Shown piece by piece: positions 3,113 through 60,053 of a stretch of 64,000 nucleotides of DNA. A program made the translations under genes and the position numbers. The stretch's first letter is position 1. Every line of letters starts with the position of its first letter. The notes beneath the pieces were generated by a model. The model ran no database searches, was not told the DNA's origin, and saw only the letters and a program-made list of their open reading frames with translations. The stretch lies in NCBI RefSeq assembly GCF_053078305.1, contig NZ_CP166879.1. The stretch is one strand, 5' to 3'.

Positions 3113-4387
3113 ATGATACCTATGAAAAACTATCTTTTCCAGACACCCGAAGATATTTGTGTACAGTTAAAAAAAATGACACATCCTGTCACAATAAGAA
3201 CAACAGATATTGCTAATTTCTGGCACTATCTTGAGTCAGCAACACTTCCAGTGATCACAAAAAGCACCACTACAGAAAATCGGGAGGTTACATTTCTGTG
3301 GCGCTCAGAGAAAGCACTGCAAGGCGTATATCTTCGCCTGAATCGTGTAACAGATAAAAAAGACGTCAAAAAAGGACTAATGACTCATATCCCTTCGACA
3401 GATATCTGGATGCTGACACTGGTGTTACCAGCTTCATATCGGGGCTCATACTCATTTATAGAAATTCCCACAGATATGACACAAAAAGACATATTTCAAC
3501 TAGGAAGTCGCTTCTCTCCATTACCCGGTAAATCTGATCCATTTAACAAAACAGCAGAAATAAATATACGAGGATTCGGAGAATCAGTCCTTTCTCTTGA
3601 TATGGCTCCTGAACAAAAGGAATGGGATGATACTTCCCATAAATGTACAGGTATTCTTTCAACATTACATTCCTTTGTTGCAGGATATCAACGCCGGATT
3701 CGTTTATATTTTCCCCTGAATCCAACATCAGTACCTCTTGGATTACTTGTGTTACCTGATGCTGAAACATGGTTTGACCGGATAGATATTACCCGGGCAT
3801 TAGATATGGCCATCACCACTGGTCGTATCACGCCAATGGCAATTATGGGGATAGACAATATTAATGAATCTGATCGTATGAATATACTGGGAGGCAATAA
3901 AGAACTCATCTTTGATATAGCGGAAAATCTGATACCCCAGTTATACAGAGACTATCCGGATATCGTATGGGCTGGTCGCTCTAATACTGTACTGGCCGGG
4001 CAGAGCCTCGGTGGAGTGACAGCACTGATGGCAGCTATATATGCGTCGACAACATTTGGTACAATCATTAGTCACTCACCTTCAATGTGGTGGAACCCTG
4101 ACCAGGGCAGCCCGATCTTGTTTACTGAGAATAATACCTCCTGGGTAAGTGAGCAGATACTTTCAGCGCCTCCGAAAGATGTAAATATTCGACTTGGAGT
4201 CGGTTCTTTAGAAGGTACAACCGTCTCACATGTTCAGCGATTGCATCATTCGTTAATCGCAGCTGGTTTGGAAAGTAACCTCACTGTCTATACCGGTGGT
4301 CACGATTATGCTTGGTGGCGCGGAGCAATTATTGATGAATTAGCAAATTATAATTGCAGGAAGGTATCAAATAATAACTCTGTGTAA
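3113..4387 (+). CDS. mchS1: Enterobactin/salmochelin esterase (Fes/IroD-like), MchS1-type
   Basis: 424 aa with GQSLGG serine-hydrolase motif; sits between microcin genes and the IroB-like glycosyltransferase. Confidence 0.75.
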   Translation: MIPMKNYLFQTPEDICVQLKKMTHPVTIRTTDIANFWHYLESATLPVITKSTTTENREVTFLWRSEKALQGVYLRLNRVTDKKDVKKGLMTHIPSTDIWMLTLVLPASYRGSYSFIEIPTDMTQKDIFQLGSRFSPLPGKSDPFNKTAEINIRGFGESVLSLDMAPEQKEWDDTSHKCTGILSTLHSFVAGYQRRIRLYFPLNPTSVPLGLLVLPDAETWFDRIDITRALDMAITTGRITPMAIMGIDNINESDRMNILGGNKELIFDIAENLIPQLYRDYPDIVWAGRSNTVLAGQSLGGVTALMAAIYASTTFGTIISHSPSMWWNPDQGSPILFTENNTSWVSEQILSAPPKDVNIRLGVGSLEGTTVSHVQRLHHSLIAAGLESNLTVYTGGHDYAWWRGAIIDELANYNCRKVSNNNSV

Positions 4388-6964: not shown

Positions 6965-7531
6965 TTAAAAGTCACTACACCCAAGATGACGTTCAATGGC
7001 ACCATAGGATTCAATGTAAGCCCGGGCCGTCTGTTCCAGTACACCAGGCTCAGCGTTGTATGTGTTAGCTGCATCAAATACCAACGACAACACTTCAGGA
7101 TACACAACCAGATGTGTAATGGAGTTATCTTCACTCAATACTTTTCCCCACGCCTGCTCAATCAGATTTCTTAGAACCACCACCTCACGACTCTTACACC
7201 AGACATCGTTATTAAGTAGCAGCACCATAAGATAAGGAGTGGTATCGTTAGCCACAGCTTCCCTACTCCAGAGATAATATAAAGGGGTGGGCTCAACAGA
7301 TTGATCTTTACGTCGCTTACACTGCAAATATTCAGAAATGAGTCTATGCAGTTCACCAGTAAAATCAGCCATCAGAGAGGGAATGGCCTTATTAATACCC
7401 TGCCCTGGTATTAATTTAAATTGTAATAATTTAATTTCAGGATGTGTGGCTGCAGCCCGATACAGAGTTGCAAGGACACACTTTTGCCAGAGGGCGTTAC
7501 AGGAAAGCTTAACATTTGATTCTGTATACAT
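6965..7531 (-). CDS. Inovirus Gp2-like / YfjJ-YagK family protein, copy 1
   Basis: 188 aa with the hydrophobic core motif (YLMVLLLNNDVW) seen in YfjJ/YagK family; AAGGTG Shine-Dalgarno. Confidence 0.7.
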   Translation of the reverse strand: MYTESNVKLSCNALWQKCVLATLYRAAATHPEIKLLQFKLIPGQGINKAIPSLMADFTGELHRLISEYLQCKRRKDQSVEPTPLYYLWSREAVANDTTPYLMVLLLNNDVWCKSREVVVLRNLIEQAWGKVLSEDNSITHLVVYPEVLSLVFDAANTYNAEPGVLEQTARAYIESYGAIERHLGCSDF

Positions 7532-7598
7532 AATAAATCACCTTACAGTTACAACAGGTCAAAAACCGCTGTAGCCAGAGTTACGCTGGCCTGATGCT

Positions 7599-7808
7599 TT
7601 AGCATCGGGCTTCGTCAAATAATCCAGAATCCAGACGTGCCAATAAGCGCTGATACTGCTCAGGGAAATCAGGAGCATTAATATCCTGGATGTCACGTCC
7701 ATTAGCAGGGAAATGAACAATGCAGCCCCCTGGATTAACTATGCAGAAATCATCCTGAGGCACTGATAAATACGGAGAGGACTCTCGCGTATGGTTGATT
7801 GACACCAC
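7599..7808 (-). pseudogene. Possible gene remnant (ORF lacking an ATG start)
   Basis: 69-codon frame starting with GTG, no in-frame ATG; protein-like C-terminus (DFPEQYQRLLARLDSGLFDEA). Confidence 0.25.
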
Positions 7809-8009
7809 AGTGCGAATTCGGCGGATGCGAGATCACGGTACGATTCCGCACCACACTACCAATCAATACCCCGGGTTTTATTCAGGTAAGCAGGACTGCG
7901 GATATCCGGTGTCGCGCCGTTGTGTCACGAACGGGGTGGGTGCGAAACACCGGATAAAATACAGGTTGGCAATACCTCTGAACGCCCTGCGCAGAGCGGG
8001 GATTTCGGA

Positions 8010-8816
8010 TTAAGTACTCGCACCTCCGCAGTCCTCAAACAAGTCTGGCTGGTAGCTGTAAACAGACTTCGTACATACCGCTCTGCAATAAATCCCCGTA
8101 CCACAGGCCTCACAGAACTTCTTCCCATGAAAAAACTGCTCACACATCACACAATGCCACTCCAGCACGACCGATAATGGCGATAAAAACATCGCCATAT
8201 CCTCAATGTAAGGGTGGGACTTTTCCGGATTCAGCACCACACAGTCCGCCTTCTGTTGCTCACTCAGGGCATGTAAATCATGCTCAAACCATGCCCCCTG
8301 AGCATCTGTCTGCAGAATCAACCGGCCATGGCAGGAAAGGCAGAAACAATGCCGGATATTTCTGCTGAGCGCAGAGTCGGCACTGATAATGTGTTCACCC
8401 GGCGTGATCCCCAGCCCCGTTTTTATACCGTTCATTCTGCTACCCCCCTCCTCACTGAAGCGTCCGGTCTGGCAGTGTGTGCAGTACCGCTCCCCATAAT
8501 AATCGTGGTGACATTGTCTGCAGTGCCAGCTGGCTTTACGCACCACGGGTAAGGCATCCGGGACGAATTGCTGCAGACGTTTAATCAACTGTATTTCTCT
8601 GCGTTCCGGCCTGACATAAGGACATTGCTGCGCGTGCTCCGTCAGCCCTTCGTCAGCGTGTTCAAACCAGGGCCGTTCAGTGTCGTATTGCGGGTGGTAT
8701 CTGAGTGCACTGCCGCAAAGGTGGCAGGTGTAGCGGTCGTAAGGCGCAGTCTGTGCGGTACGGGCCCCCGTCAGACGTCCGTTGCCATCAAGAGCGAGAA
8801 AGGATTTTGCGTACAT
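8010..8816 (-). CDS. Cys/His-rich protein with internally duplicated zinc-ribbon-like motifs
   Basis: 268 aa; two halves each carrying CxxC ... WFEH ... WHCxxC ... CxxC patterns; GAGGAA Shine-Dalgarno. Confidence 0.65.
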   Translation of the reverse strand: MYAKSFLALDGNGRLTGARTAQTAPYDRYTCHLCGSALRYHPQYDTERPWFEHADEGLTEHAQQCPYVRPERREIQLIKRLQQFVPDALPVVRKASWHCRQCHHDYYGERYCTHCQTGRFSEEGGSRMNGIKTGLGITPGEHIISADSALSRNIRHCFCLSCHGRLILQTDAQGAWFEHDLHALSEQQKADCVVLNPEKSHPYIEDMAMFLSPLSVVLEWHCVMCEQFFHGKKFCEACGTGIYCRAVCTKSVYSYQPDLFEDCGGAST

Positions 8817-9075
8817 AGTATATATTCCTCAGCCGCCAGACGACACGCAGGCAACAGCCGTCCAGGTACGGGCAGCGTGGTCAGGTGTGAATGGCGGTTC
8901 AGTTAAAATCTGGACTGGAGTTTGGGTAAAGCAGGCTGGTTGCTGTTACAGCACTGTGGTTGTCACACAATGGCCCACTGACGTAAAAAACAGTCAGTGG
9001 GCGAGTGGATACATCGTTGCCGCCAGACAACAACCCATACTTTTGGTTTGCCGGGTATTGGTGCGCCTGTCGTGT

Positions 9076-9645
9076 TCAACTCCGGCTACAGCCAAAATTG
9101 CGCTCACCGGTGCCGCGAGCTTTGGTATGCTCCTTCGCCAGATAGCCAGAACGTTCCAGCACCTGCTGAAAGCCGGTTTCATCATCGCGTTCCAGCCACA
9201 CCGCTGGCTTGTCAGGAAAATGTGCCAGCGTGTCATAACGTCCGGCATCCACTCCCAGGGCACTGCACCAGGCCTGTTTAATAATCCCGGCCAGTGACCC
9301 CGGAGCGCGGTAATCGCCGGCACGACACCAGGTATCCCGGTTGACCAGCAGCAGCAGGTGATAGTGTTTTTTGCCTTTAAGCTCCCCGAACTCCCGGGCC
9401 CAGGCGTAATGCAGGGTCGAGGAATGCACGCGTTTACCTTCCCGATGCTTACGTTTCTGGTAAGCGTCGATTCGGGCTTTCAGGGCATTGATGAAGCGGG
9501 ATATCACAGCCGCGTCCGTTGCTGCCGGTACATCCGGGAGACGCAGATCAACCCGCAATGCCGTCAGACGGGGATGAACATCCAGTGCGTGCCGCACCGT
9601 CTCACGAATACGTTGCTGCCAGAAGGGGTTGTATTTGTAGGTCAT
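9076..9645 (-). CDS. Inovirus Gp2-like / YfjJ-YagK family protein, copy 2
   Basis: 189 aa; KKHYHLLLLVNRDTW motif; GGAGA Shine-Dalgarno. Confidence 0.7.
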   Translation of the reverse strand: MTYKYNPFWQQRIRETVRHALDVHPRLTALRVDLRLPDVPAATDAAVISRFINALKARIDAYQKRKHREGKRVHSSTLHYAWAREFGELKGKKHYHLLLLVNRDTWCRAGDYRAPGSLAGIIKQAWCSALGVDAGRYDTLAHFPDKPAVWLERDDETGFQQVLERSGYLAKEHTKARGTGERNFGCSRS

Positions 9646-9849
9646 GGTTAAATCTCCGTATGGTTTCGTTCATACGGATTAACCACGCCGTAAAAAATGC
9701 GCAGAGTCCCTGAAGTGATCTCCAACCAGGCAATATCTCAGGCACTCTGAGATAACCCGAACGGTCGTCTCCGGACTGACGGTTGAATTTTCAGCGTTGT
9801 TTTTTTAATGTAAAAAACCGATTACGGATAAGGCTGTGAGGAGGGAGTT

Positions 9850-10050
9850 ATGGTGATACGCAAAAAGAAGTGCTGGGACTGTGGAAACGCGATTACTCAT
9901 AATACTGTGTGTTGCCCGTATTGTGGTTCTGTCGACCCCTTCGGCTATTACCGGAATACAGACCGTATCGTTACTATACTGCTGGCACTGATTATTGTGG
10001 TCCTGCTGACTACTGTCAGCGTCAGTGTGTATATACTGTGTAGCTGGTGA
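9850..10050 (+). CDS. Small zinc-ribbon membrane protein
   Basis: 66 aa; CWDCG ... CCPYCG followed by one hydrophobic helix; strong GAGGAGGG Shine-Dalgarno. Confidence 0.5.
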   Translation: MVIRKKKCWDCGNAITHNTVCCPYCGSVDPFGYYRNTDRIVTILLALIIVVLLTTVSVSVYILCSW

Positions 10051-10464
10051 GATAACGGTTCATGTATCCCCTGAGCTGACAGTGTACCGGGTATATTAAG
10101 CGTAACCGACAGGTTCTCCTTCATACCATATTAAATTTTTCCAGGTATTGCCGCTGCCTTATTTCGTCTCATACAGGAAAACTCGTCTGGGTTTCTGACA
10201 AATACGTGAAACTCACAGCCCCTCAATATCAACCACACGCTGTAAGCCGGTAATACCTGAAAATCAGCCCATTACCGCCCACGCCTCCGGCACCATTCCC
10301 TTTAGATTTCGAATTCTTTGTTGTCGCTATACCGCTTAACGTTCCCGGTATTATCCTGGTTCCCGACAACAGGAACATATTCAGCTTTTAATAACCTGAG
10401 AAGAGCCAATAAGAATCACAAAGCGGATAACACCTGGCGCGATGCAGTTGTGATTACCGAACGC

Positions 10465-10662
10465 TCAGATGACATATTTCCAGACTGAAGCGGGAACACG
10501 ATCGTAAAGCTTGTTCATTGTCAGTTCTGCCAGCCAGTGATCAACCACAGAGTTGAAGGCTTCCAGTTCCGCAGAGGTAAGTTTATAACGCGTGTGGGAA
10601 ATCACTTTTTCCAGCGTCTCCCGGGATGAACAACGACGGAACTGCTTTGGTTTTAACTTCCA
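10465..10662 (-). pseudogene. Gene remnant (frame-disrupted small ORF)
   Basis: Protein-like 65-codon frame (...ETLEKVISHTRYKLTSAELEAFNSVVDHWLAELTMNKLYDRVPASVWKYVI) without a start codon; the nearby ATG is in another frame. Confidence 0.3.
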
Positions 10663-11372
10663 TTAGCCTCTCATCACTTTATGCTGCAATTAACGTGATA
10701 CTGTCAGCATACCGCCAGACTGGCATTCTGGTACCCACCCCAAACTCATTACTCCCGAGCCACCACTTAACCGGTCTCTCAGACTGTCACTCACCAGGTC
10801 GGATATGTTTACCGCTCAGACGGATGCTTAATGCACTCTGTTCACGTACATTGCAGATACGTTTTATATACGCGGGTTATACGCCAGCTATCAGGGATAG
10901 CGCAGTCTGTTGCTACTGCGTTCTCATCATGCCCACTGATCACACTCACCGTGTTTATTTCACATATATGAACTCATGTATTTGATCTCATGTGTTTGAT
11001 CTCTCTTATATATTTATAATACCAATCAGACAGTCTTATCCCATCGGTGATACCTGTCACCTGCCCACCGGACACGGTCTGCCCCATCGTAACCGCCCCG
11101 TAAATAACTCTGCAATTATCAGAACGCCAGTTTTCCCCTCTTCCTCACGAAAATCATCCCTTCTTTATCGCGCGCGCGTGCGGAAGCATCGTTTCGTAAC
11201 AACCACCCGGCATACCGGTACGGCTCAGCCACCGTAACCTCCCCGTTTATCTCCTGGCGGTCACATTCCCGATTATTTTTTACGTTTCTCCCCGGTTGTT
11301 ATGCCGGTGAAGGTGGTGCGTTGTTTTCATGACCACACCGGCTGGTTTAACAACATCCGGAGGAACATTCTC

Positions 11373-11579
11373 ATGATCACCCCAGTTTCACTGATGGATG
11401 ACCAGATGGTCGACATGGCATTTATCACTCAACTGACCGGCCTGACCGATAAGTGGTTTTACAAACTCATCAAGGATGGTGACTTTCCTGCGCCCATCAA
11501 AATGGGCCGCAGCTCCCGATGGCTGAAAAGCGAAGTGGAAGCCTGGCTGCAGGCGCGTATTGCACAGTCCCGTCCGTAA
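11373..11579 (+). CDS. alpA: AlpA-family transcriptional regulator, copy 2
   Basis: 68 aa from MITPVSLMDDQ...; TDKWFYKLIKDGDFPAPIKMGRSSRWLKSEVEAW; GGAGG Shine-Dalgarno. Confidence 0.8.
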   Translation: MITPVSLMDDQMVDMAFITQLTGLTDKWFYKLIKDGDFPAPIKMGRSSRWLKSEVEAWLQARIAQSRP

Positions 11580-11659
11580 TTCTTAACCGTTCATCTGCAG
11601 CAGACGCAGTCTCCGGCCTGCCGGCGGCGTTCTGCTGCCTGTTATCCCCCGTGAGGAAT

Positions 11660-12268
11660 ATGAAAATGAAACCACAGTATCAGACCCGTTACGAGCTGCT
11701 CCACGAAAGCTACCAGAAATGGCTGACCGGCTTCACCCGGCACGCCGTATCCTGGGGCGTGTGTCATCCGAATATCTACTACTTCCATAATCTGACGCCC
11801 GGGTGGGTGTCATTCAATGGTGAAAAACCGGAGATTGCCATCGTACCCCAGAGTCTGCACCGGCTGATGTATGGTCCGGACAAACGGACCACGCCGCCCC
11901 TGGATGATGATCTGATAGTGAATTTATGCACCAGTGAACATCTGCTGGTTCATCATCCGATGCTGGAAGGCATTCTCCTGTCTGAATGTGAACGTCTGAG
12001 GCAGCGTTCGCTGGCAAATAAACTGATCAGCCTCTTCCGTCAGTTTGGTGGCACGGAGTTGCGCCTCAAACTGGTCTGGCTTTGCTGGCTTGATTTAATG
12101 ACCGGAAACTGCCTTGACGACTGGACGGAGAATCTGAAACGGAAATCAGAAAAAGAGCTGGAGGAATGGATCATCAACCGTCAGAAGCAGAGCGCAGCAC
12201 TGACGGATCTGATGGATCAGTACGTGCTCCTGGCATACCGCACAACGGTTGACGATAAGCGCACCTGA
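11660..12268 (+). CDS. Hypothetical protein (about 203 aa) immediately downstream of alpA copy 2
   Basis: ORF with GAGGAA Shine-Dalgarno, start at ATG 11660 or 11666; no recognisable family. Confidence 0.6.
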   Translation: MKMKPQYQTRYELLHESYQKWLTGFTRHAVSWGVCHPNIYYFHNLTPGWVSFNGEKPEIAIVPQSLHRLMYGPDKRTTPPLDDDLIVNLCTSEHLLVHHPMLEGILLSECERLRQRSLANKLISLFRQFGGTELRLKLVWLCWLDLMTGNCLDDWTENLKRKSEKELEEWIINRQKQSAALTDLMDQYVLLAYRTTVDDKRT

Positions 12269-12491
12269 TGCCAGTTGTTTCAGGGAAGCTGGTATCCGGG
12301 CAGGGTGCCAGGGCTGACTGAACGGCCTGTCTGCCTGCCGTTTCGCTCTCCGTGCGTTCTGTCACACGCTGCACCTGAACGCCGGACTGCGGGCACGCAG
12401 ACAGGAAAGACGCAGGCTGGAACTTCTGACCGGCGGGTATCAGTTATATGCCTGTTGATTCATCACCACCACGCAGTTCCTGAGCTTTAGT

Positions 12492-12529
12492 TCATCACCG
12501 ATATTCATACATCTGAATATCGGTGATGA
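12492..12529. terminator. Perfect 16-bp inverted repeat (6-nt loop) between convergent genes
   Basis: tcatcaccgatattca tacatc tgaatatcggtgatga read directly. Confidence 0.6.
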
Positions 12530-12589
12530 AATCCCCATAATAATCAATCATCTAAGTCTGAAGCATAATAGAGAAAAACTGCTCACCGG

Positions 12590-14074
12590 TTACTTCGCTC
12601 TCAGCTTATTGTAGTGATAACCCGAGGTAAAAATACCAGAGACATCAGACAACTTTAAACTGGCTATCTGGGGAAGCAGAACATACATGGTTTTTCCTTC
12701 CGGCACGACAGAAAGCCTGAACTGAGATTCAAGAATGTTCAGCAATGCGTTCAGTTTTTTCCTGTTTCTGAACCGGCCCGGGCCACACTGGAGAATATAA
12801 TTTTTCCTGACACGGGGCGGGCATTCTCCGCGGCACTCCTCAATGAGCCAGTCGAACAGCTCCTCGGCGTCCTTCTGCTGCAGTTCAGATTCATTAGGTA
12901 ACGCAAATAATTTTTTATATTCATCTGTGTACCACGAACTTATTACGACAGCAGACGTCATGATATCGGCAGAGATTTTCCCTTCACCATAGCTGAAATA
13001 CTGAAATAACGCTGCAATTCTTGCAATGTTTTCTGTTTTTTTTGAAACATGTCCCCGAAACGGGCTTAAGGGTCCGGAAGGGGATAAATCCTGCTCCAGA
13101 ACATTATAGTGCTCAATAAATATTTTTTGCGCTTCAGGCGAAAAATGCAGACAATACCGTTCATCCTCACTGGATTTTTCAATACTGCCTCTGGCCAGTT
13201 CCATTAATCGTTCATGAAATGCCGTTAATGATCCTCCCGGAATCACAGCTCCATTAATAAAGCGTTTCCCCTGCGTGGTTGCAGGTTTACTGATAAGACA
13301 ACGGGCAAGAAAACCACTGTCCCTGGCAACAGAACCTTTTCGCTCCATATATCGGTCAAAAAGACCGGGTTGCACCATGAGGGATAACGTCATTCTGGCA
13401 TTTTCAATCATCTGTTCGGGTTCATTCTTTCTGTCCACAGACAATACAGAGCCATCCCACATTTTGTTAATAAAAGGCAACTCAGACAGGGTATATCCAT
13501 CAAATATAATACCGGCTTCATCTGACATAATACCCACTGAACGCCATTTACCACAAAGCTGATTCTTAATTGCCGCAGTCGTGGCATCATTAAAAATGAA
13601 TTTATACCTCACAGGTTCTTCCGCACTGTTTTTCTGAAGTACTTCCAGTTGTCTGAGGGTTTCTGACTCATCCGCGCCTTTGCGGAGTTCTTTATTCAGT
13701 TTTGACAACAATGCTTTTTTCTGAGCCTTTAAAAGCTCTTCCTTGTTTTTCCAGACAGCCAGTTCACTTTTGTATCTGGAATATAACTGCATCTCCTGCT
13801 GGTACAGGGGCTTCATTAATAATTTGTCCACTGCGGTTTTTCGTTCTCCGGACTCGGCAAGCGTCAGGAAAAAAAGAGAGACCGGCCCCCGCAGTGTATT
13901 CAGTCTGCAGACATCAATCAGATTCTGGCAGACAAGTGAAACAGCGCCCAGGGCAGACGCTGCCACAAGCCCAAGGGGAGCCTGCGTAATTTGCTGAGCT
14001 TCAATAACGGCATCACGAATGAGTGGAGGCAGCGAACTCAGGGGAAACTCATCACAAGGCTGACCGAATGACAT
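12590..14074 (-). CDS. YfjI-like protein (DUF3987-type, P4/CP4-like element protein)
   Basis: 494 aa from MSFGQPCDEF... (ATG 14074, GAGG Shine-Dalgarno); family assignment from recall of CP4-57 yfjI. Confidence 0.55.
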   Translation of the reverse strand: MSFGQPCDEFPLSSLPPLIRDAVIEAQQITQAPLGLVAASALGAVSLVCQNLIDVCRLNTLRGPVSLFFLTLAESGERKTAVDKLLMKPLYQQEMQLYSRYKSELAVWKNKEELLKAQKKALLSKLNKELRKGADESETLRQLEVLQKNSAEEPVRYKFIFNDATTAAIKNQLCGKWRSVGIMSDEAGIIFDGYTLSELPFINKMWDGSVLSVDRKNEPEQMIENARMTLSLMVQPGLFDRYMERKGSVARDSGFLARCLISKPATTQGKRFINGAVIPGGSLTAFHERLMELARGSIEKSSEDERYCLHFSPEAQKIFIEHYNVLEQDLSPSGPLSPFRGHVSKKTENIARIAALFQYFSYGEGKISADIMTSAVVISSWYTDEYKKLFALPNESELQQKDAEELFDWLIEECRGECPPRVRKNYILQCGPGRFRNRKKLNALLNILESQFRLSVVPEGKTMYVLLPQIASLKLSDVSGIFTSGYHYNKLRAK

Positions 14075-16176: not shown

Positions 16177-16295
16177 ACACTCTGCCAGGGGAAATGCCTG
16201 ATTACATTGCGTTAACCAACTGAAAACATGACACAAACCCCTCATCCCCCTCCTGTTTCTCTTGCGTGACCGCTCTGCTGTCAATAGAATAAAAC

Positions 16296-16331
16296 GATCG
16301 ATAAAACAGGTATCGATCGTTACTATCGATC
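16296..16331 (+). promoter_or_regulatory. Ag43 phase-variation switch: three closely spaced GATC (Dam) sites in the OxyR-binding region
   Basis: GATC at 16296, 16315 and 16328, about 220-250 bp upstream of the flu start. Confidence 0.7.
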
Positions 16332-16548
16332 GTTTATAGTGGTTAATGGTCTGCGAAAAGGCAGCTGAATCTCTTCATCATGCAGAACGGAATTGCACAC
16401 AACGGACTGATACTTCTCTGGCGGATGAGAGAGGGGAAGCATTTATGTCCGGGAAAAACCACTTTATCTGACCATGCTGTTTTGTACCTGCCGGTATCCA
16501 CATTTGTGGGTACCGGCTTTTTTATTCACCCTCTGTAAGGAAAAGCTG

Positions 16549-58782: not shown

Positions 58783-59874
58783 ATGCGTTTTCTGCGCCGA
58801 CCAATATCGCTGCGCCAACGGCTGATATTGACCATCGGGGCCATTTTGTTGGTGTTTGAGCTGATCAGCGTCTTCTGGCTATGGCATGAAAGTACCGAGC
58901 AGATTCAGCTGTTTGAGCAGGCGCTACGCGACAATCGCAACAACGATCGCCACATCATGCGTGAGATCCGCGAGGCGGTCGCCAGCCTGATTGTCCCCGG
59001 CGTCTTTATGGTCAGCCTGACGCTATTTATCTGCTATCAGGCGGTACGCCGCATCACCCGCCCGCTGGCGGAGCTGCAAAAAGAGCTGGAAGCGCGCACC
59101 GCCGACAACTTAACGCCCATTGCCATTCACAGCGCCACCCTCGAAATCGAAGCGGTGGTTTCGGCGTTGAACGATCTGGTCAGTCGCCTGACCAGCACGC
59201 TGGATAACGAAAGGTTGTTTACCGCTGACGTCGCGCACGAACTGCGAACGCCACTGGCGGGGGTGCGTTTGCATCTGGAACTGCTGGAGAAAACGCATCA
59301 CATTGATGTAGCACCGTTAGTGGCACGGCTTGATCAGATGATGGAGAGCGTCTCCCAGCTGCTGCAACTGGCGCGTGCCGGACAGTCATTTTCTTCCGGT
59401 AATTATCAACATGTAAAACTGCTGGAAGATGTCATTCTCCCCTCGTATGACGAACTCAGTACCATGCTCGACCAGCGCCAGCAAACCCTGCTATTGCCAG
59501 AGAGCGCCGCCGACATCACCGTTCAGGGTGATGCAACCCTGCTGCGGATGTTATTGCGAAACCTGGTAGAAAACGCCCATCGTTACAGCCCGCAAGGCAG
59601 CAACATTATGATTAAGCTGCAAGAAGATGGCGGAGCGGTCATGGCAGTTGAAGATGAAGGACCAGGTATTGATGAGAGTAAATGCGGGGAGTTGAGTAAA
59701 GCGTTTGTACGAATGGACAGCCGTTATGGCGGGATTGGTCTGGGGTTAAGTATTGTCAGCCGCATTACACAGTTGCATCACGGGCAGTTTTTCCTGCAAA
59801 ACCGGCAAGAGACTTCTGGCACGCGCGCCTGGATACGGCTGAAGAAAGATCAGTACGTGGCAAACCAGATATAA
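58783..59874 (+). CDS. basS: Sensor kinase BasS (PmrB)
   Basis: 363 aa from MRFLRRPISLRQRLILTIGAILLVFELISVFWLWHES... (TTG at 58774 is an alternative start). Confidence 0.9.
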   Translation: MRFLRRPISLRQRLILTIGAILLVFELISVFWLWHESTEQIQLFEQALRDNRNNDRHIMREIREAVASLIVPGVFMVSLTLFICYQAVRRITRPLAELQKELEARTADNLTPIAIHSATLEIEAVVSALNDLVSRLTSTLDNERLFTADVAHELRTPLAGVRLHLELLEKTHHIDVAPLVARLDQMMESVSQLLQLARAGQSFSSGNYQHVKLLEDVILPSYDELSTMLDQRQQTLLLPESAADITVQGDATLLRMLLRNLVENAHRYSPQGSNIMIKLQEDGGAVMAVEDEGPGIDESKCGELSKAFVRMDSRYGGIGLGLSIVSRITQLHHGQFFLQNRQETSGTRAWIRLKKDQYVANQI

Positions 59875-59939
59875 AGAAAGCTGCTGACCACCAGCACGCT
59901 GAACACGGTAGTTAAACTTTCATAAACACGGTTTTTCAT
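59850..59939 (-). CDS. pmrR: Small membrane peptide PmrR
   Basis: 29 aa MKNRVYESLTTVFSVLVVSSFLYIWFATY with GGAGGAGAG Shine-Dalgarno; 3' end overlaps the basS 3' end antisense; found by manual translation. Confidence 0.8.
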   Translation of the reverse strand: MKNRVYESLTTVFSVLVVSSFLYIWFATY

Positions 59940-59941
59940 TG

Positions 59942-59968
59942 CACTCTCCTCCGTTAACCTGGAGGAGA
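59942..59968. terminator. Hairpin between basS and proP (also contains the pmrR Shine-Dalgarno)
   Basis: ctctcctcc gttaacc tggaggagag inverted repeat. Confidence 0.5.
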
Positions 59969-60053
59969 GTATGCGCGTCAGAGATTAAGTGAACCTTAAG
60001 AGTTCAATTGTTGGTCTGATAAGACAGCGTCACATCAGGCCATCCGTTTCAGC

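What the first reader, a model, noticed from the sequence alone, without database searches (positions are those of the whole stretch)
9850..10050. Stand-alone zinc-ribbon membrane mini-protein with strong translation signals
A 66-aa protein with CWDCG ... CCPYCG followed by one hydrophobic helix, preceded by GAGGAGGG. It sits alone between the Gp2-like gene and the noncoding region. Small zinc-ribbon membrane proteins can act as toxins or regulators.
Basis: seen in the sequence. Interest (0 to 1): 0.35.

Follow-up and report, generated by a model that had tools for sequence, protein, structure and literature searches.

The report
Small membrane-anchored zinc-ribbon island protein
The 66-codon reading frame is a real, conserved but uncharacterised gene of E. 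coli genomic islands that encodes a tiny zinc-binding head held on the inner membrane by a tail anchor; its function is untested and nothing here shows a new mechanism.

Summary
Window 9850-10050 (+) encodes a 66-aa protein with CxxC-x9-CCxxC, one C-terminal hydrophobic helix and a GAGGAGGG ribosome-binding site.

It is a real gene, not a chance ORF:
- The window is an E. coli chromosomal island, and the SD+ORF is found in 2891 of 5426 complete E. coli genomes. PGAP calls a CDS in 55 of 60 sampled copies.
- The zinc-ribbon half is under purifying selection (dN/dS 0.11-0.26).
- The tail has diverged (31-60% identity between subfamilies) but stays uncharged and equally hydrophobic.
- DNA similarity collapses just after the stop codon.

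The gene always lies divergent from a YagK/YfjJ ("inovirus Gp2 family") gene and convergent with an hha2/hha3-type gene. By my mapping of published strain 042 data, its transcript is H-NS/Hha-repressed.

It belongs to an unnamed wider family (hhalign 98.3%) on conjugative plasmids and integrative conjugative elements (ICEs). In the four distant-relative contexts examined, it pairs with a TYW3-fold protein that is absent from this window.

My best reading is a membrane-tethered cytoplasmic zinc-ribbon adaptor or regulator rather than a pore-forming toxin. That reading is inferred, not shown. Interest is modest.

The parts
9850..10050 (+). Coding sequence of the 66-aa zinc-ribbon/tail-anchor protein, stop codon included. 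Codon 2 (GTG) is a possible alternative start.
   Evidence: ORF list. RefSeq CDS WP_001336481.1 at the matching place of NZ_CP035498.1. Homolog clusters. dN/dS. In subfamily 3 the codon aligned with the ATG is ATC, so GTG at codon 2 probably starts translation there.
9838..9845 (+). Shine-Dalgarno sequence GAGGAGGG, 4 nt upstream of the ATG
   Evidence: Read from the sequence. Kept as GTGAGGAGGGAG or GTGGAGAGGGAG in all four alleles aligned.
9871..9924 (+). Zinc ribbon: the two cysteine knuckles C8-W-D-C11 and C21-C22-P-Y-C25
   Evidence: C8, C21, C22 and C25 are invariant and C11 nearly invariant in the alignment of intact members. C8, C11, C22 and C25 are invariant when distant relatives are included. 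Sub-threshold Pfam Zn_ribbon_3 match at residues 5-28, E 6e-4. Only non-significant Foldseek matches to zinc-knuckle domains.
9928..9966 (+). Conserved juxtamembrane motif S27-V-D-P-F-G-Y-Y-R-N-T-D-R39
   Evidence: Y33 is invariant and V28, D29, F31, G32, Y34, R35, T37, D38 and R39 nearly invariant in A1. D29 and P30 are nearly invariant and R35 invariant across distant relatives. The distant family has the matching motif S-x-DPFG-x2-R.
9967..10047 (+). C-terminal hydrophobic membrane anchor, I40-W66 (27 residues, none charged)
   Evidence: Mean hydropathy 2.52, and 2.45-2.54 in the other subfamilies despite 31-60% identity. AlphaFold2 helix 34-65 with pLDDT about 90.
9646..9849 (.). 204-bp divergent intergenic region shared with the YagK/YfjJ gene. 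It is highly conserved and holds inverted repeats at 9655-9662/9671-9678, 9734-9741/9747-9754 and 9799-9805/9812-9818.
   Evidence: DNA identity 0.85-0.95 between island subfamilies. Inverted repeats. No sigma-70-like site found on the + strand by the simple scan.
9076..9645 (-). Context: divergent 189-aa YagK/YfjJ ('inovirus Gp2 family') gene. It is the invariable upstream neighbour of the mini-gene in every related island locus examined.
   Evidence: Annotation. PF11726 YagK_YfjJ_C in all related loci.
10465..10614 (-). Context: convergent, truncated Hha/YmoA-family gene (49 aa here, 74 aa where intact)
   Evidence: Annotation WP_052318419.1. Intact 74-aa PF05321 genes at the same position in L009, L011 and L013. 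This is the hha2/hha3 type of PMC4864382.

Best explanation
Window 9850-10050 is a genuine protein-coding gene of the conserved backbone of E. coli 'CP4-44/CP4-57-like' integrative islands. The backbone order is YagK/YfjJ, mini-gene, Hha2/3, AlpA, YfjI, YeeP-like GTPase, Ag43, CbtA/CbeA.

The product is a tail-anchored inner-membrane protein. Residues 1-39 face the cytoplasm: a basic N-terminus, a C4 zinc ribbon and the motif SVDPFGYYRNTDR. Residues 40-66 are a single membrane helix, with almost nothing exposed to the periplasm.

Transcription is normally held down by H-NS/Hha, as for the rest of the island.

Most likely mode of action (inferred, not shown): the membrane helix serves mainly as an anchor. 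The zinc-ribbon head, held within about ten residues of the membrane surface, binds a cytoplasmic or membrane-proximal partner and keeps or regulates it at the membrane. On this reading it is a small adaptor or regulator, not a pore-forming toxin. Candidate partners are products of the island's own YagK/zinc-ribbon (DUF7828) module or a host membrane complex.

The confidence given (0.45) is for the whole statement, mode of action included. That the ORF is a real, selected gene encoding a zinc-ribbon head on a membrane helix I hold at about 0.9.
For: Real gene:
- Annotated CDS in RefSeq.
- The SD+ORF is found in 2891 of 5426 complete E. coli genomes, almost always on chromosomes, and PGAP calls a CDS under 55 of 60 evenly sampled matches.
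- The exact protein occurs on at least 1000 contigs.
- dN/dS of codons 2-39 is 0.11-0.26 between four alleles, with a synonymous excess at P 0.001-0.04.
- DNA identity is 0.85-0.97 through yagK, the intergenic region and the 5' half of the ORF. It falls to 0.65 in the tail and to 0.16-0.44 after the stop.

Architecture and topology:
- The cysteines are invariant.
- The N-domain has net charge +3 to +5, while the tail has no charge and constant hydropathy.
- AlphaFold2 gives a helix at 34-65 with pLDDT about 90.

Anchor-plus-head logic:
- The N-domain is 85-92% identical between subfamilies, against 31-60% for the tail.
- The family-wide invariants lie in the head and juxtamembrane motif.

Constant context:
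- The divergent YagK/YfjJ gene is present in every island locus examined.

Expression and silencing:
- In strain 042, gene order and duplicate-group sizes identify the gene as EC042_2238/EC042_4795.
- PMC6480617 Table 1 reports EC042_2238 up 5.6-fold in an hha-null mutant and 4.2-fold in an hns mutant.

Against a toxin-antitoxin layout:
- The only antisense promoter-like site (10019-9991) is not conserved.
- No Rfam family matches and no PADLOC model hits.
Against: - No experiment or interaction data bear on the function, and the partner is unknown.
- The locus-tag mapping in strain 042 is my inference. It was not read from the original record.
- RNA-seq shows a transcript, not a protein.
- No + strand promoter was identified.
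- The zinc-ribbon part of the model has low confidence (pLDDT 51-60), and zinc binding is untested.
- The dN/dS values rest on four alleles and 9-16 substitutions per pair.
- A rapidly diverging membrane helix (dN/dS up to 2.1 in one pair) could also mean diversifying selection on a membrane interaction rather than a passive anchor.
- About 8% of sampled copies are disrupted and decayed copies exist, so the gene is dispensable in at least some genomes.
Confidence: 0.45

Rival explanations
1. It is a small membrane toxin, either type I-like or an abortive-infection or exclusion effector. When de-repressed, its helix inserts into the inner membrane and dissipates membrane potential. H-NS/Hha silencing takes the place of an antitoxin.
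For: - Small size, a single very hydrophobic helix, a strong SD and residence on a mobile element.
- Silenced by H-NS/Hha according to my mapping of PMC6480617.
- The four distant relatives examined lie convergent to, and 3'-overlapping with, another gene. This geometry is used by some type I toxin-antitoxin systems (own knowledge).
- Frameshifted and decayed copies occur.
Against: - Selection is strongest on the cytoplasmic zinc ribbon, not on the helix.
- There is no conserved antisense promoter, no Rfam family and no terminator-bounded small RNA.
- There is no adjacent antitoxin-like gene in the window, and the partner of the distant relatives is absent.
- No PADLOC hit.
- About 90% of copies are intact, and genomes hold up to four places, with a median of one.
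- Known type I toxins have no zinc ribbon (own knowledge).
Confidence: 0.2
2. It is a conjugation- or transfer-related accessory factor inherited from plasmids or ICEs, for example one that modulates a type IV secretion system, entry exclusion or mobilisation of the island.
For: - A profile-profile match (98.3%, E 1.3e-14) links it to a family that sits inside F-type tra operons, a Dot/Icm-type element and a PAPI-1-like ICE.
- Relatives occur in 121 plasmid records, 116 of them predicted conjugative. One lies between traN and trbC of an IncFIA/FIC plasmid.
Against: - The window shows no type IV secretion genes near the gene.
- The position of the relatives within tra operons varies, as expected for cargo rather than a core component.
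- The partner gene occurs in tra operons without the mini-gene.
Confidence: 0.12
3. It is a decaying remnant: the solitary survivor of a former two-gene cassette, still open by recent descent but with no present function.
For: - The partner found next to distant relatives is missing.
- The neighbouring Hha gene is truncated in the window.
- Decayed and frameshifted copies exist.
- The gene is absent from all GTDB species-representative genomes by pattern scan.
Against: - dN/dS of the N-domain is 0.11-0.26 across alleles whose synonymous divergence is 0.28-0.56.
- The tail keeps its length and hydropathy through 40-69% sequence change.
- The SD is conserved.
- About 90% of sampled copies are intact.
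Confidence: 0.1
4. It is a chance ORF inside a conserved regulatory or origin-like DNA segment next to the YagK/YfjJ gene. The DNA, not a protein, is what is conserved.
For: - The adjacent intergenic DNA is as conserved as the 5' half of the ORF and is rich in inverted repeats.
- There is no protein-level evidence.
Against: - Substitutions in codons 2-39 are biased to synonymous sites.
- The 3' half diverges in sequence but keeps frame, length and hydrophobicity.
- Distant relatives at 31-42% identity keep the same motifs in unrelated DNA contexts.
Confidence: 0.03

Closest known systems
Generic C4 zinc-ribbon domains (Pfam Zn_ribbon_3 PF13248, Zn_Ribbon_1 PF13240, DZR PF12773)
   Same: Two CxxC knuckles 9-10 residues apart, and the best Pfam match covers residues 5-28. 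Many such domains are followed by a membrane helix (own knowledge).
   Different: The score is below Pfam's cut-off (19.6 against 27 bits). These families say nothing about function. The conserved SxDPFGxxR juxtamembrane motif is not part of them.
DUF2116 (PF09889, 'probable treble clef'): roughly 60-aa zinc-ribbon proteins with a hydrophobic C-terminus
   Same: Same size and order of parts. The weak match spans residues 6-56 against profile positions 4-53 of 59. Seven of 15 distant relatives match, best E 3.7e-5. NCBI names a Raoultella relative 'DUF2116 family Zn-ribbon domain-containing protein'.
   Different: The window protein scores 11.2 bits against a cut-off of 26.8. DUF2116 itself has no known function.
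Unnamed family of 70-85-aa proteins 'L-x2-CVDCGK-x-LS-x-TA-x2-C-x2-CNSTDPFGKKR + membrane helix' on conjugative plasmids and ICEs (alignment A5)
   Same: Homologous by profile-profile comparison (98.3%, E 1.3e-14, 55 columns). Same cysteines, the same DPFG-x2-R motif, a membrane helix at the same place and residence on mobile elements.
   Different: Those proteins carry a 10-25-residue tail beyond the helix. In the four contexts examined they are paired with a convergent, 3'-overlapping 126-148-aa 'ASCQGHG' protein of TYW3-like fold. The window protein ends at the helix, and no such partner is in the window or in related island loci.
Type I toxin-antitoxin toxins and other small membrane toxins of E. 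coli (Hok, TisB, Ibs, Ldr, ShoB, GhoT)
   Same: Small, with one hydrophobic helix, and often on prophages or islands.
   Different: There is no conserved antisense RNA, promoter or Rfam family here. A zinc ribbon makes up more than half of the protein. Selection falls on the soluble head.
Small inner-membrane regulatory proteins of E. coli (AcrZ-AcrB, MgrB-PhoQ, MgtS-MgtA) and C-tail-anchored proteins (TssL, ElaB/YqjD)
   Same: A single-helix small protein, expected to act by binding a larger partner at the membrane. Its tail-anchor topology resembles that of TssL (PMC3426401, listed). AcrZ and MgrB papers are listed.
   Different: No sequence relationship. In those regulators the helix itself usually carries the specificity, whereas here the helix is the least conserved part. 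No partner is known.

Membership tests
Pfam Zn_ribbon_3 (PF13248), generic zinc ribbon | Profile score at or above the gathering cut-off (27 bits) | tested here: not met
   19.6 bits, E 6.3e-4, residues 5-28
Pfam Zn_ribbon_3 (PF13248), generic zinc ribbon | Two CxxC knuckles with a short spacer, conserved across homologs | tested here: met
   C8-x2-C11 and C22-x2-C25. These are invariant or nearly invariant in A2 and invariant in A4.
Pfam Zn_ribbon_3 (PF13248), generic zinc ribbon | Binds one zinc ion through the four cysteines | not testable with these tools
   Needs metal analysis of purified protein. The AlphaFold2 model of this part has low confidence (pLDDT 51-60).
DUF2116 (PF09889) | Profile score at or above the gathering cut-off (26.8 bits) | tested here: not met
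   11.2 bits, E 0.37 for the window protein. The best distant relative reaches E 3.7e-5, and the members whose scores were printed score 17.4-23.7 bits, below the cut-off.
DUF2116 (PF09889) | Roughly 60-aa protein with an N-terminal zinc ribbon followed by a hydrophobic C-terminal segment | tested here: met
   66 aa, ribbon at 8-25 and hydrophobic tail at 40-66
Unnamed mobile-element zinc-ribbon/membrane family (A5, defined here) | Significant profile-profile similarity covering the ribbon, the DPFG-x2-R motif and the start of the helix | tested here: met
   hhalign probability 98.3%, E 1.3e-14, 55 aligned columns. A profile of the island family alone reaches P0132, P0133 and P0141 at E 6e-5 to 3e-4 in 1.84 billion proteins.
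Unnamed mobile-element zinc-ribbon/membrane family (A5, defined here) | Convergent, 3'-overlapping partner gene encoding the 'ASCQGHG' TYW3-fold protein | tested here: not met
   tblastn of four partner proteins against the window and six related island loci gave no hit at E <= 1.
Type I toxin-antitoxin system | Cis-encoded antisense RNA overlapping the toxin mRNA | tested here: inconclusive
   One antisense promoter-like site (10019-9991) is not conserved in the other subfamilies. No Rfam match. No transcript maps were available.
Type I toxin-antitoxin system | Over-expression is toxic through membrane damage | not testable with these tools
   Requires an induction experiment.
C-tail-anchored inner-membrane proteins | A single membrane helix within the last ~30 residues, a cytoplasmic N-terminal domain (positive-inside) and a negligible periplasmic tail | tested here: met
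   Hydrophobic 40-66 with no residues beyond it. N-domain net charge is +3 to +5, with R35 and R39 flanking the helix. Helix 34-65 in the model. Membrane insertion itself was not tested.

The most novel reading that the evidence does not exclude
The gene is the solitary, H-NS/Hha-silenced descendant of an undescribed two-gene cassette of mobile elements. The cassette pairs a membrane-anchored zinc-ribbon protein with a TYW3-fold, possibly SAM-dependent, enzyme and rides inside conjugative transfer operons. The zinc-ribbon protein would be the membrane-located effector or sensor of a new exclusion, defence or transfer-control function, present in more than half of E. coli genomes.
Probability: 0.15. 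Interest if true: 0.6.

Novelty: new member of a known kind. Interest (0 to 1): 0.35.

Why it matters
The gene is present in roughly half to two-thirds of complete E. coli genomes, including the strains 042, IHE3034 and representatives of O104:H4, O145:H28 and ST131. I did not find it next to either K-12 YagK/YfjJ gene, which may explain why nobody has studied it.

It adds one more conserved, silenced small membrane protein to the backbone of the Ag43/CbtA-type islands. Through its plasmid relatives, it also points to a mostly unannotated small gene inside the transfer operons of clinical IncF plasmids.

If its partner could be found, it would give a handle on the equally uncharacterised YagK/YfjJ-zinc-ribbon module. 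As it stands, it is a solid annotation and a testable lead, not a surprise.

Tried and rejected
- Known family assignment. Pfam, NCBIfam, PADLOC and PHROGs gave only sub-threshold generic zinc-ribbon hits or phage families of unknown function.
- Fold search of the AlphaFold2 model against the PDB gave nothing significant, with a best E of 1.8.
- Antisense RNA or type I toxin-antitoxin layout. Rfam gathering and E-value scans were negative. The one antisense promoter-like site is not conserved. No terminator-like site was found.
- A 5'-UTR structure hiding the SD. RNAalifold pairs GTCTCC (about 9767-9772) with the SD, but with no covariation and an unknown transcription start. I did not pursue this.
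- A + strand promoter. None was found by the scan. A TTGAAT-17-TAATGT candidate seen by eye loses its spacing in subfamily 2.
- K-12 homolog. None lies in CP4-57 or CP4-6. I did not scan the whole K-12 genome.
- Wider taxonomic spread. A peptide-pattern scan and a 21-mer scan of 100,044 species-representative genomes found no copy.
- Phage collection. Only a 20-residue fragment at the end of a 4.4-kb record.
- IMG/VR. 3 contigs.
- Plasmids. 8 records, several of chromosome size.
- Partner of the distant relatives. Absent from the window and from related island loci.
- Literature. No paper was found for the accession numbers, DUF7828, or YagK/YfjJ together with zinc ribbon. The supplement of PMC5861252 did not contain the 042 locus tags I searched for.

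Full report
**1. The observation**

The + strand ORF 9850..10050 encodes MVIRKKKCWDCGNAITHNTVCCPYCGSVDPFGYYRNTDRIVTILLALIIVVLLTTVSVSVYILCSW.
- It has two cysteine knuckles, C8-x2-C11 and C21/C22-x2-C25.
- GAGGAGGG lies at 9838-9845, four bases before the ATG.
- The last 27 residues are uncharged and strongly hydrophobic.
- The gene is divergent from a 189-aa YagK/YfjJ ("inovirus Gp2 family") gene at 9076..9645 (-). About 415 nt without an annotated gene follow it, then a truncated Hha-like gene.

ORFs of this length are common in the window: 68 ORFs of at least 30 aa overlap 7000-13000. The case for a gene therefore rests on conservation.

**2. Where the window comes from**

- The region is 100% identical to the chromosome of E. 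coli 04-00955 (NZ_CP035498.1). There the ORF is annotated as hypothetical protein WP_001336481.1.
- The window is a genomic island. It carries microcin H47 genes, an AlpA-like regulator, a YfjI (DUF3987) protein, a YeeP-like GTPase, Ag43, IrmA, CbtA/CbeA and group 2 capsule genes.

**3. Distribution**

- The 651-bp segment around the gene occurs in 3535 of 5426 complete E. coli genomes, with a median of two places per genome.
- The SD+ORF alone occurs in 2891 genomes, at 3619 places on chromosomes and 3 on plasmids. In an even sample of 60 records PGAP calls a CDS under the match in 55. Four matches are unannotated, three of them one base short, and one is truncated.
- The exact protein is on at least 1000 contigs.
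- Protein searches found 72 clusters, all from E. coli, Shigella, Salmonella or Klebsiella. The cluster look-up adds E. albertii.
- No copy lies next to either K-12 YagK/YfjJ gene.
- No species-representative genome of GTDB gave a confirmed match.
- Real phages lack it.
- It is therefore an accessory, island-borne gene of Escherichia and close relatives.

**4. Evidence for selection on a protein**

Intact members fall into three subfamilies that share the N-terminal 39 residues but differ in the tail.

| Measure | N-terminal domain (codons 2-39) | Tail (codons 40-end) |
|---|---|---|
| Identity between subfamilies | 85-92% | 31-60%; 88% between subfamily 2 and its Salmonella variant |
| dN/dS, four alleles | 0.11-0.26 | 0.36-2.1 |
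| Charge and hydropathy | net +3 to +5 | no charged residue, hydropathy 2.45-2.54 |

- The synonymous excess in the N-domain has P 0.001-0.04 per pair.
- The tail is 25-27 residues long in every subfamily.
- DNA identity is 0.85-0.97 through yagK, the intergenic region and the 5' half of the ORF. It drops to 0.73 and 0.65 in the tail, then to 0.44-0.16 right after the stop.
- The gene therefore ends a conserved block. The junction with variable DNA lies at the boundary between the two protein domains.
- In subfamily 3 the codon aligned with the ATG is ATC, so GTG (codon 2) probably starts translation there.

**5. Structure**

- AlphaFold2, with a shallow 14-sequence alignment, gives one confident helix at 34-65 (pLDDT about 90). 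The N-terminal part has low confidence (51-60) and only short strands.
- A Foldseek search of the PDB returned only non-significant matches to zinc-knuckle domains.
- Pfam gives sub-threshold hits to Zn_ribbon_3 (E 6e-4), DZR and, across residues 6-56, DUF2116.
- The positive-inside rule places the zinc ribbon in the cytoplasm (net charge +3 to +5, with R35 and R39 next to the helix). Almost nothing lies beyond the membrane.
- The protein is therefore a tail-anchored inner-membrane protein. This is inferred from sequence and was not tested.

**6. Genomic context**

- Every related island locus I examined has the same order: two DUF7828/Zn_ribbon_11 genes and YagK/YfjJ on one strand, then the mini-gene divergent from them. 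These are the loci found with proteins of subfamilies 2 and 3 and a Salmonella variant, plus IHE3034 and three copies in strain 042.
- A convergent Hha-family gene follows where it is present, then AlpA, a 190-200-aa protein, YfjI and the GTPase-Ag43 block.
- The 204-bp divergent intergenic region is almost as conserved as the coding DNA and holds several inverted repeats.
- The simple scan found no + strand sigma-70 site and no terminator.

**7. Expression**

- The Hha genes next to the mini-gene are the hha2/hha3 paralogues of EAEC 042, EC042_4516 and EC042_4796 (PMC4864382).
- Strain 042 has three copies of the module:
  - an intact mini-gene next to hha3;
  - a 64-aa variant in the CP4-44-like island;
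  - a decayed copy next to hha2, which lacks the second knuckle.
- PMC6480617 lists duplicate groups in gene order. Groups 46 and 47 have three members each. Group 48 ("hypothetical protein", EC042_2238/EC042_4795) has two and sits immediately before hha3.
- With that paper's cut-offs, YagK and the adjacent zinc-ribbon gene each have three qualifying copies, while the mini-protein has exactly two. I therefore identify group 48 as the mini-gene.
- Table 1 of the paper gives EC042_2238 as 5.6-fold up in an hha-null strain and 4.2-fold up in an hns mutant.
- The mapping is my inference. If it is right, the gene is transcribed and silenced by H-NS/Hha like the rest of the island.

**8. A wider family**

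- A profile of the island family, searched against 1.84 billion representatives, reached small proteins with the same plan at E 6e-5 to 8e-4.
- A second search with a mixed profile found more, from E. coli plasmid-like contigs, Raoultella, Collimonas, Cellvibrio and others.
- Their consensus is L-x2-CVDCGK-x-LS-x-TA-x2-C-x2-CNSTDPFGKKR, then a membrane helix and a short tail.
- Profile-profile comparison with the island family gives 98.3% probability and E 1.3e-14 over 55 columns.
- These relatives sit in F-type transfer operons on the opposite strand, in a Dot/Icm-type element and in a PAPI-1-like ICE.
- tblastn finds them in 121 plasmid records, 116 of them predicted conjugative and mostly unannotated. 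One lies between traN and trbC of an IncFIA/FIC NDM-5 plasmid.
- In all four contexts examined the small gene converges on, and overlaps the 3' end of, a 126-148-aa gene with an invariant T-x-ASCQGH core (G36 nearly invariant).
- The partner is absent from the window and from related islands. It also occurs without the small gene. The pairing is therefore frequent but not obligatory, and the island form is truly solitary.

**9. Interpretation**

Shown:
- a conserved, selected coding sequence;
- two-domain architecture;
- constant linkage to YagK/YfjJ;
- membership of a wider mobile-element family.

Inferred:
- cytoplasmic zinc-ribbon head on a tail anchor;
- H-NS/Hha-repressed transcription;
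- action by binding a partner at the membrane.

I favour an adaptor or regulator over a toxin for three reasons. Selection bears on the head, while the helix behaves as a composition-constrained anchor. No antitoxin, conserved antisense promoter or RNA family is present. The solitary gene is intact in most of several thousand genomes.

A toxin held in check by silencing, a transfer-related role inherited from plasmids, or a slowly decaying remnant all remain possible. None can be excluded without experiments.

**10. Verdict**

The finding is real and correctly described. It is already present in databases as a hypothetical protein, and I found no literature on its function. It is a new, somewhat better-defined member of a familiar kind, the small zinc-ribbon membrane proteins of mobile elements. 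Interest is modest at 0.35. The most novel reading still open is the two-gene cassette idea of section 8.

Noticed in passing
   Followed up: partly
L035 3501-3719 (+), which is NZ_CP095656.1 58339-58557: A small zinc-ribbon/membrane gene lies on the anti-tra strand between traN and a 126-aa hypothetical gene next to trbC, in an IncFIA/FIC NDM-5 plasmid. In 21 of the 25 listed records (of 121 plasmid records with a match, 116 predicted conjugative) no feature is annotated under the match.
   Followed up: partly
window 9645-9685: Nested inverted repeats, TGGTTAA/TTAACCA around TCCGTATG/CATACGGA, sit directly upstream of the YagK/YfjJ start codon. In the minus-strand mRNA they would fold over its GGAG ribosome-binding site. 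The inner stem is invariant in four alleles, with a 3- or 8-nt loop.
   Followed up: no
window 9734-9754 and 9799-9818: Two further palindromes lie in the divergent intergenic region: TATCTCAG-N5-CTGAGATA and GTTTTTT-N6-AAAAAAC. They could be operator or origin-like sites for the Gp2-like protein or a regulator. They are only partly conserved in the other subfamilies.
   Followed up: no
window 10465-10614 (-): The Hha/YmoA-family gene convergent with the mini-gene is truncated to 49 aa here, against 74 aa at the same position in other islands. It corresponds to the hha2/hha3 paralogues described in pathogenic E. coli.
   Followed up: partly
window 8010-8816 (-): A single 268-aa ORF rich in CxxC motifs stands where related islands have two separate DUF7828/Zn_ribbon_11 genes of about 127-137 aa. 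RefSeq annotates it as a partial pseudogene plus a 141-aa gene.
   Followed up: no
window 6965-7531 (-): A second YagK/YfjJ-domain gene (188 aa) lies about 1.5 kb from the first. No copy of the mini-gene is beside it, and only one copy exists in the whole window by tblastn.
   Followed up: partly
L037 34044-34130 (-), which is NC_017626.1 about 4849044-4849130: In strain 042 the copy next to hha2 is decayed. It has a ten-codon deletion that removes the second cysteine knuckle, and an altered tail. The CP4-44-like copy has a one-codon deletion (V20) and a 3' frameshift that still leaves a hydrophobic tail.
   Followed up: yes
window 59843-60008 (-) and 16294-16530 (+): Rfam matches above the gathering score: enterobacterial sRNA STnc630 (181.8 bits) and IS102 RNA (74.6 bits).
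   Followed up: no
window 9967-10047 compared with L004, L009 and L014: Synonymous divergence is also higher in the tail-coding part than in the zinc-ribbon part, for example 0.92 against 0.28 for window vs L004. This suggests a mosaic history with a recombination junction at the domain boundary, not only relaxed constraint. The counts are small.
   Followed up: partly
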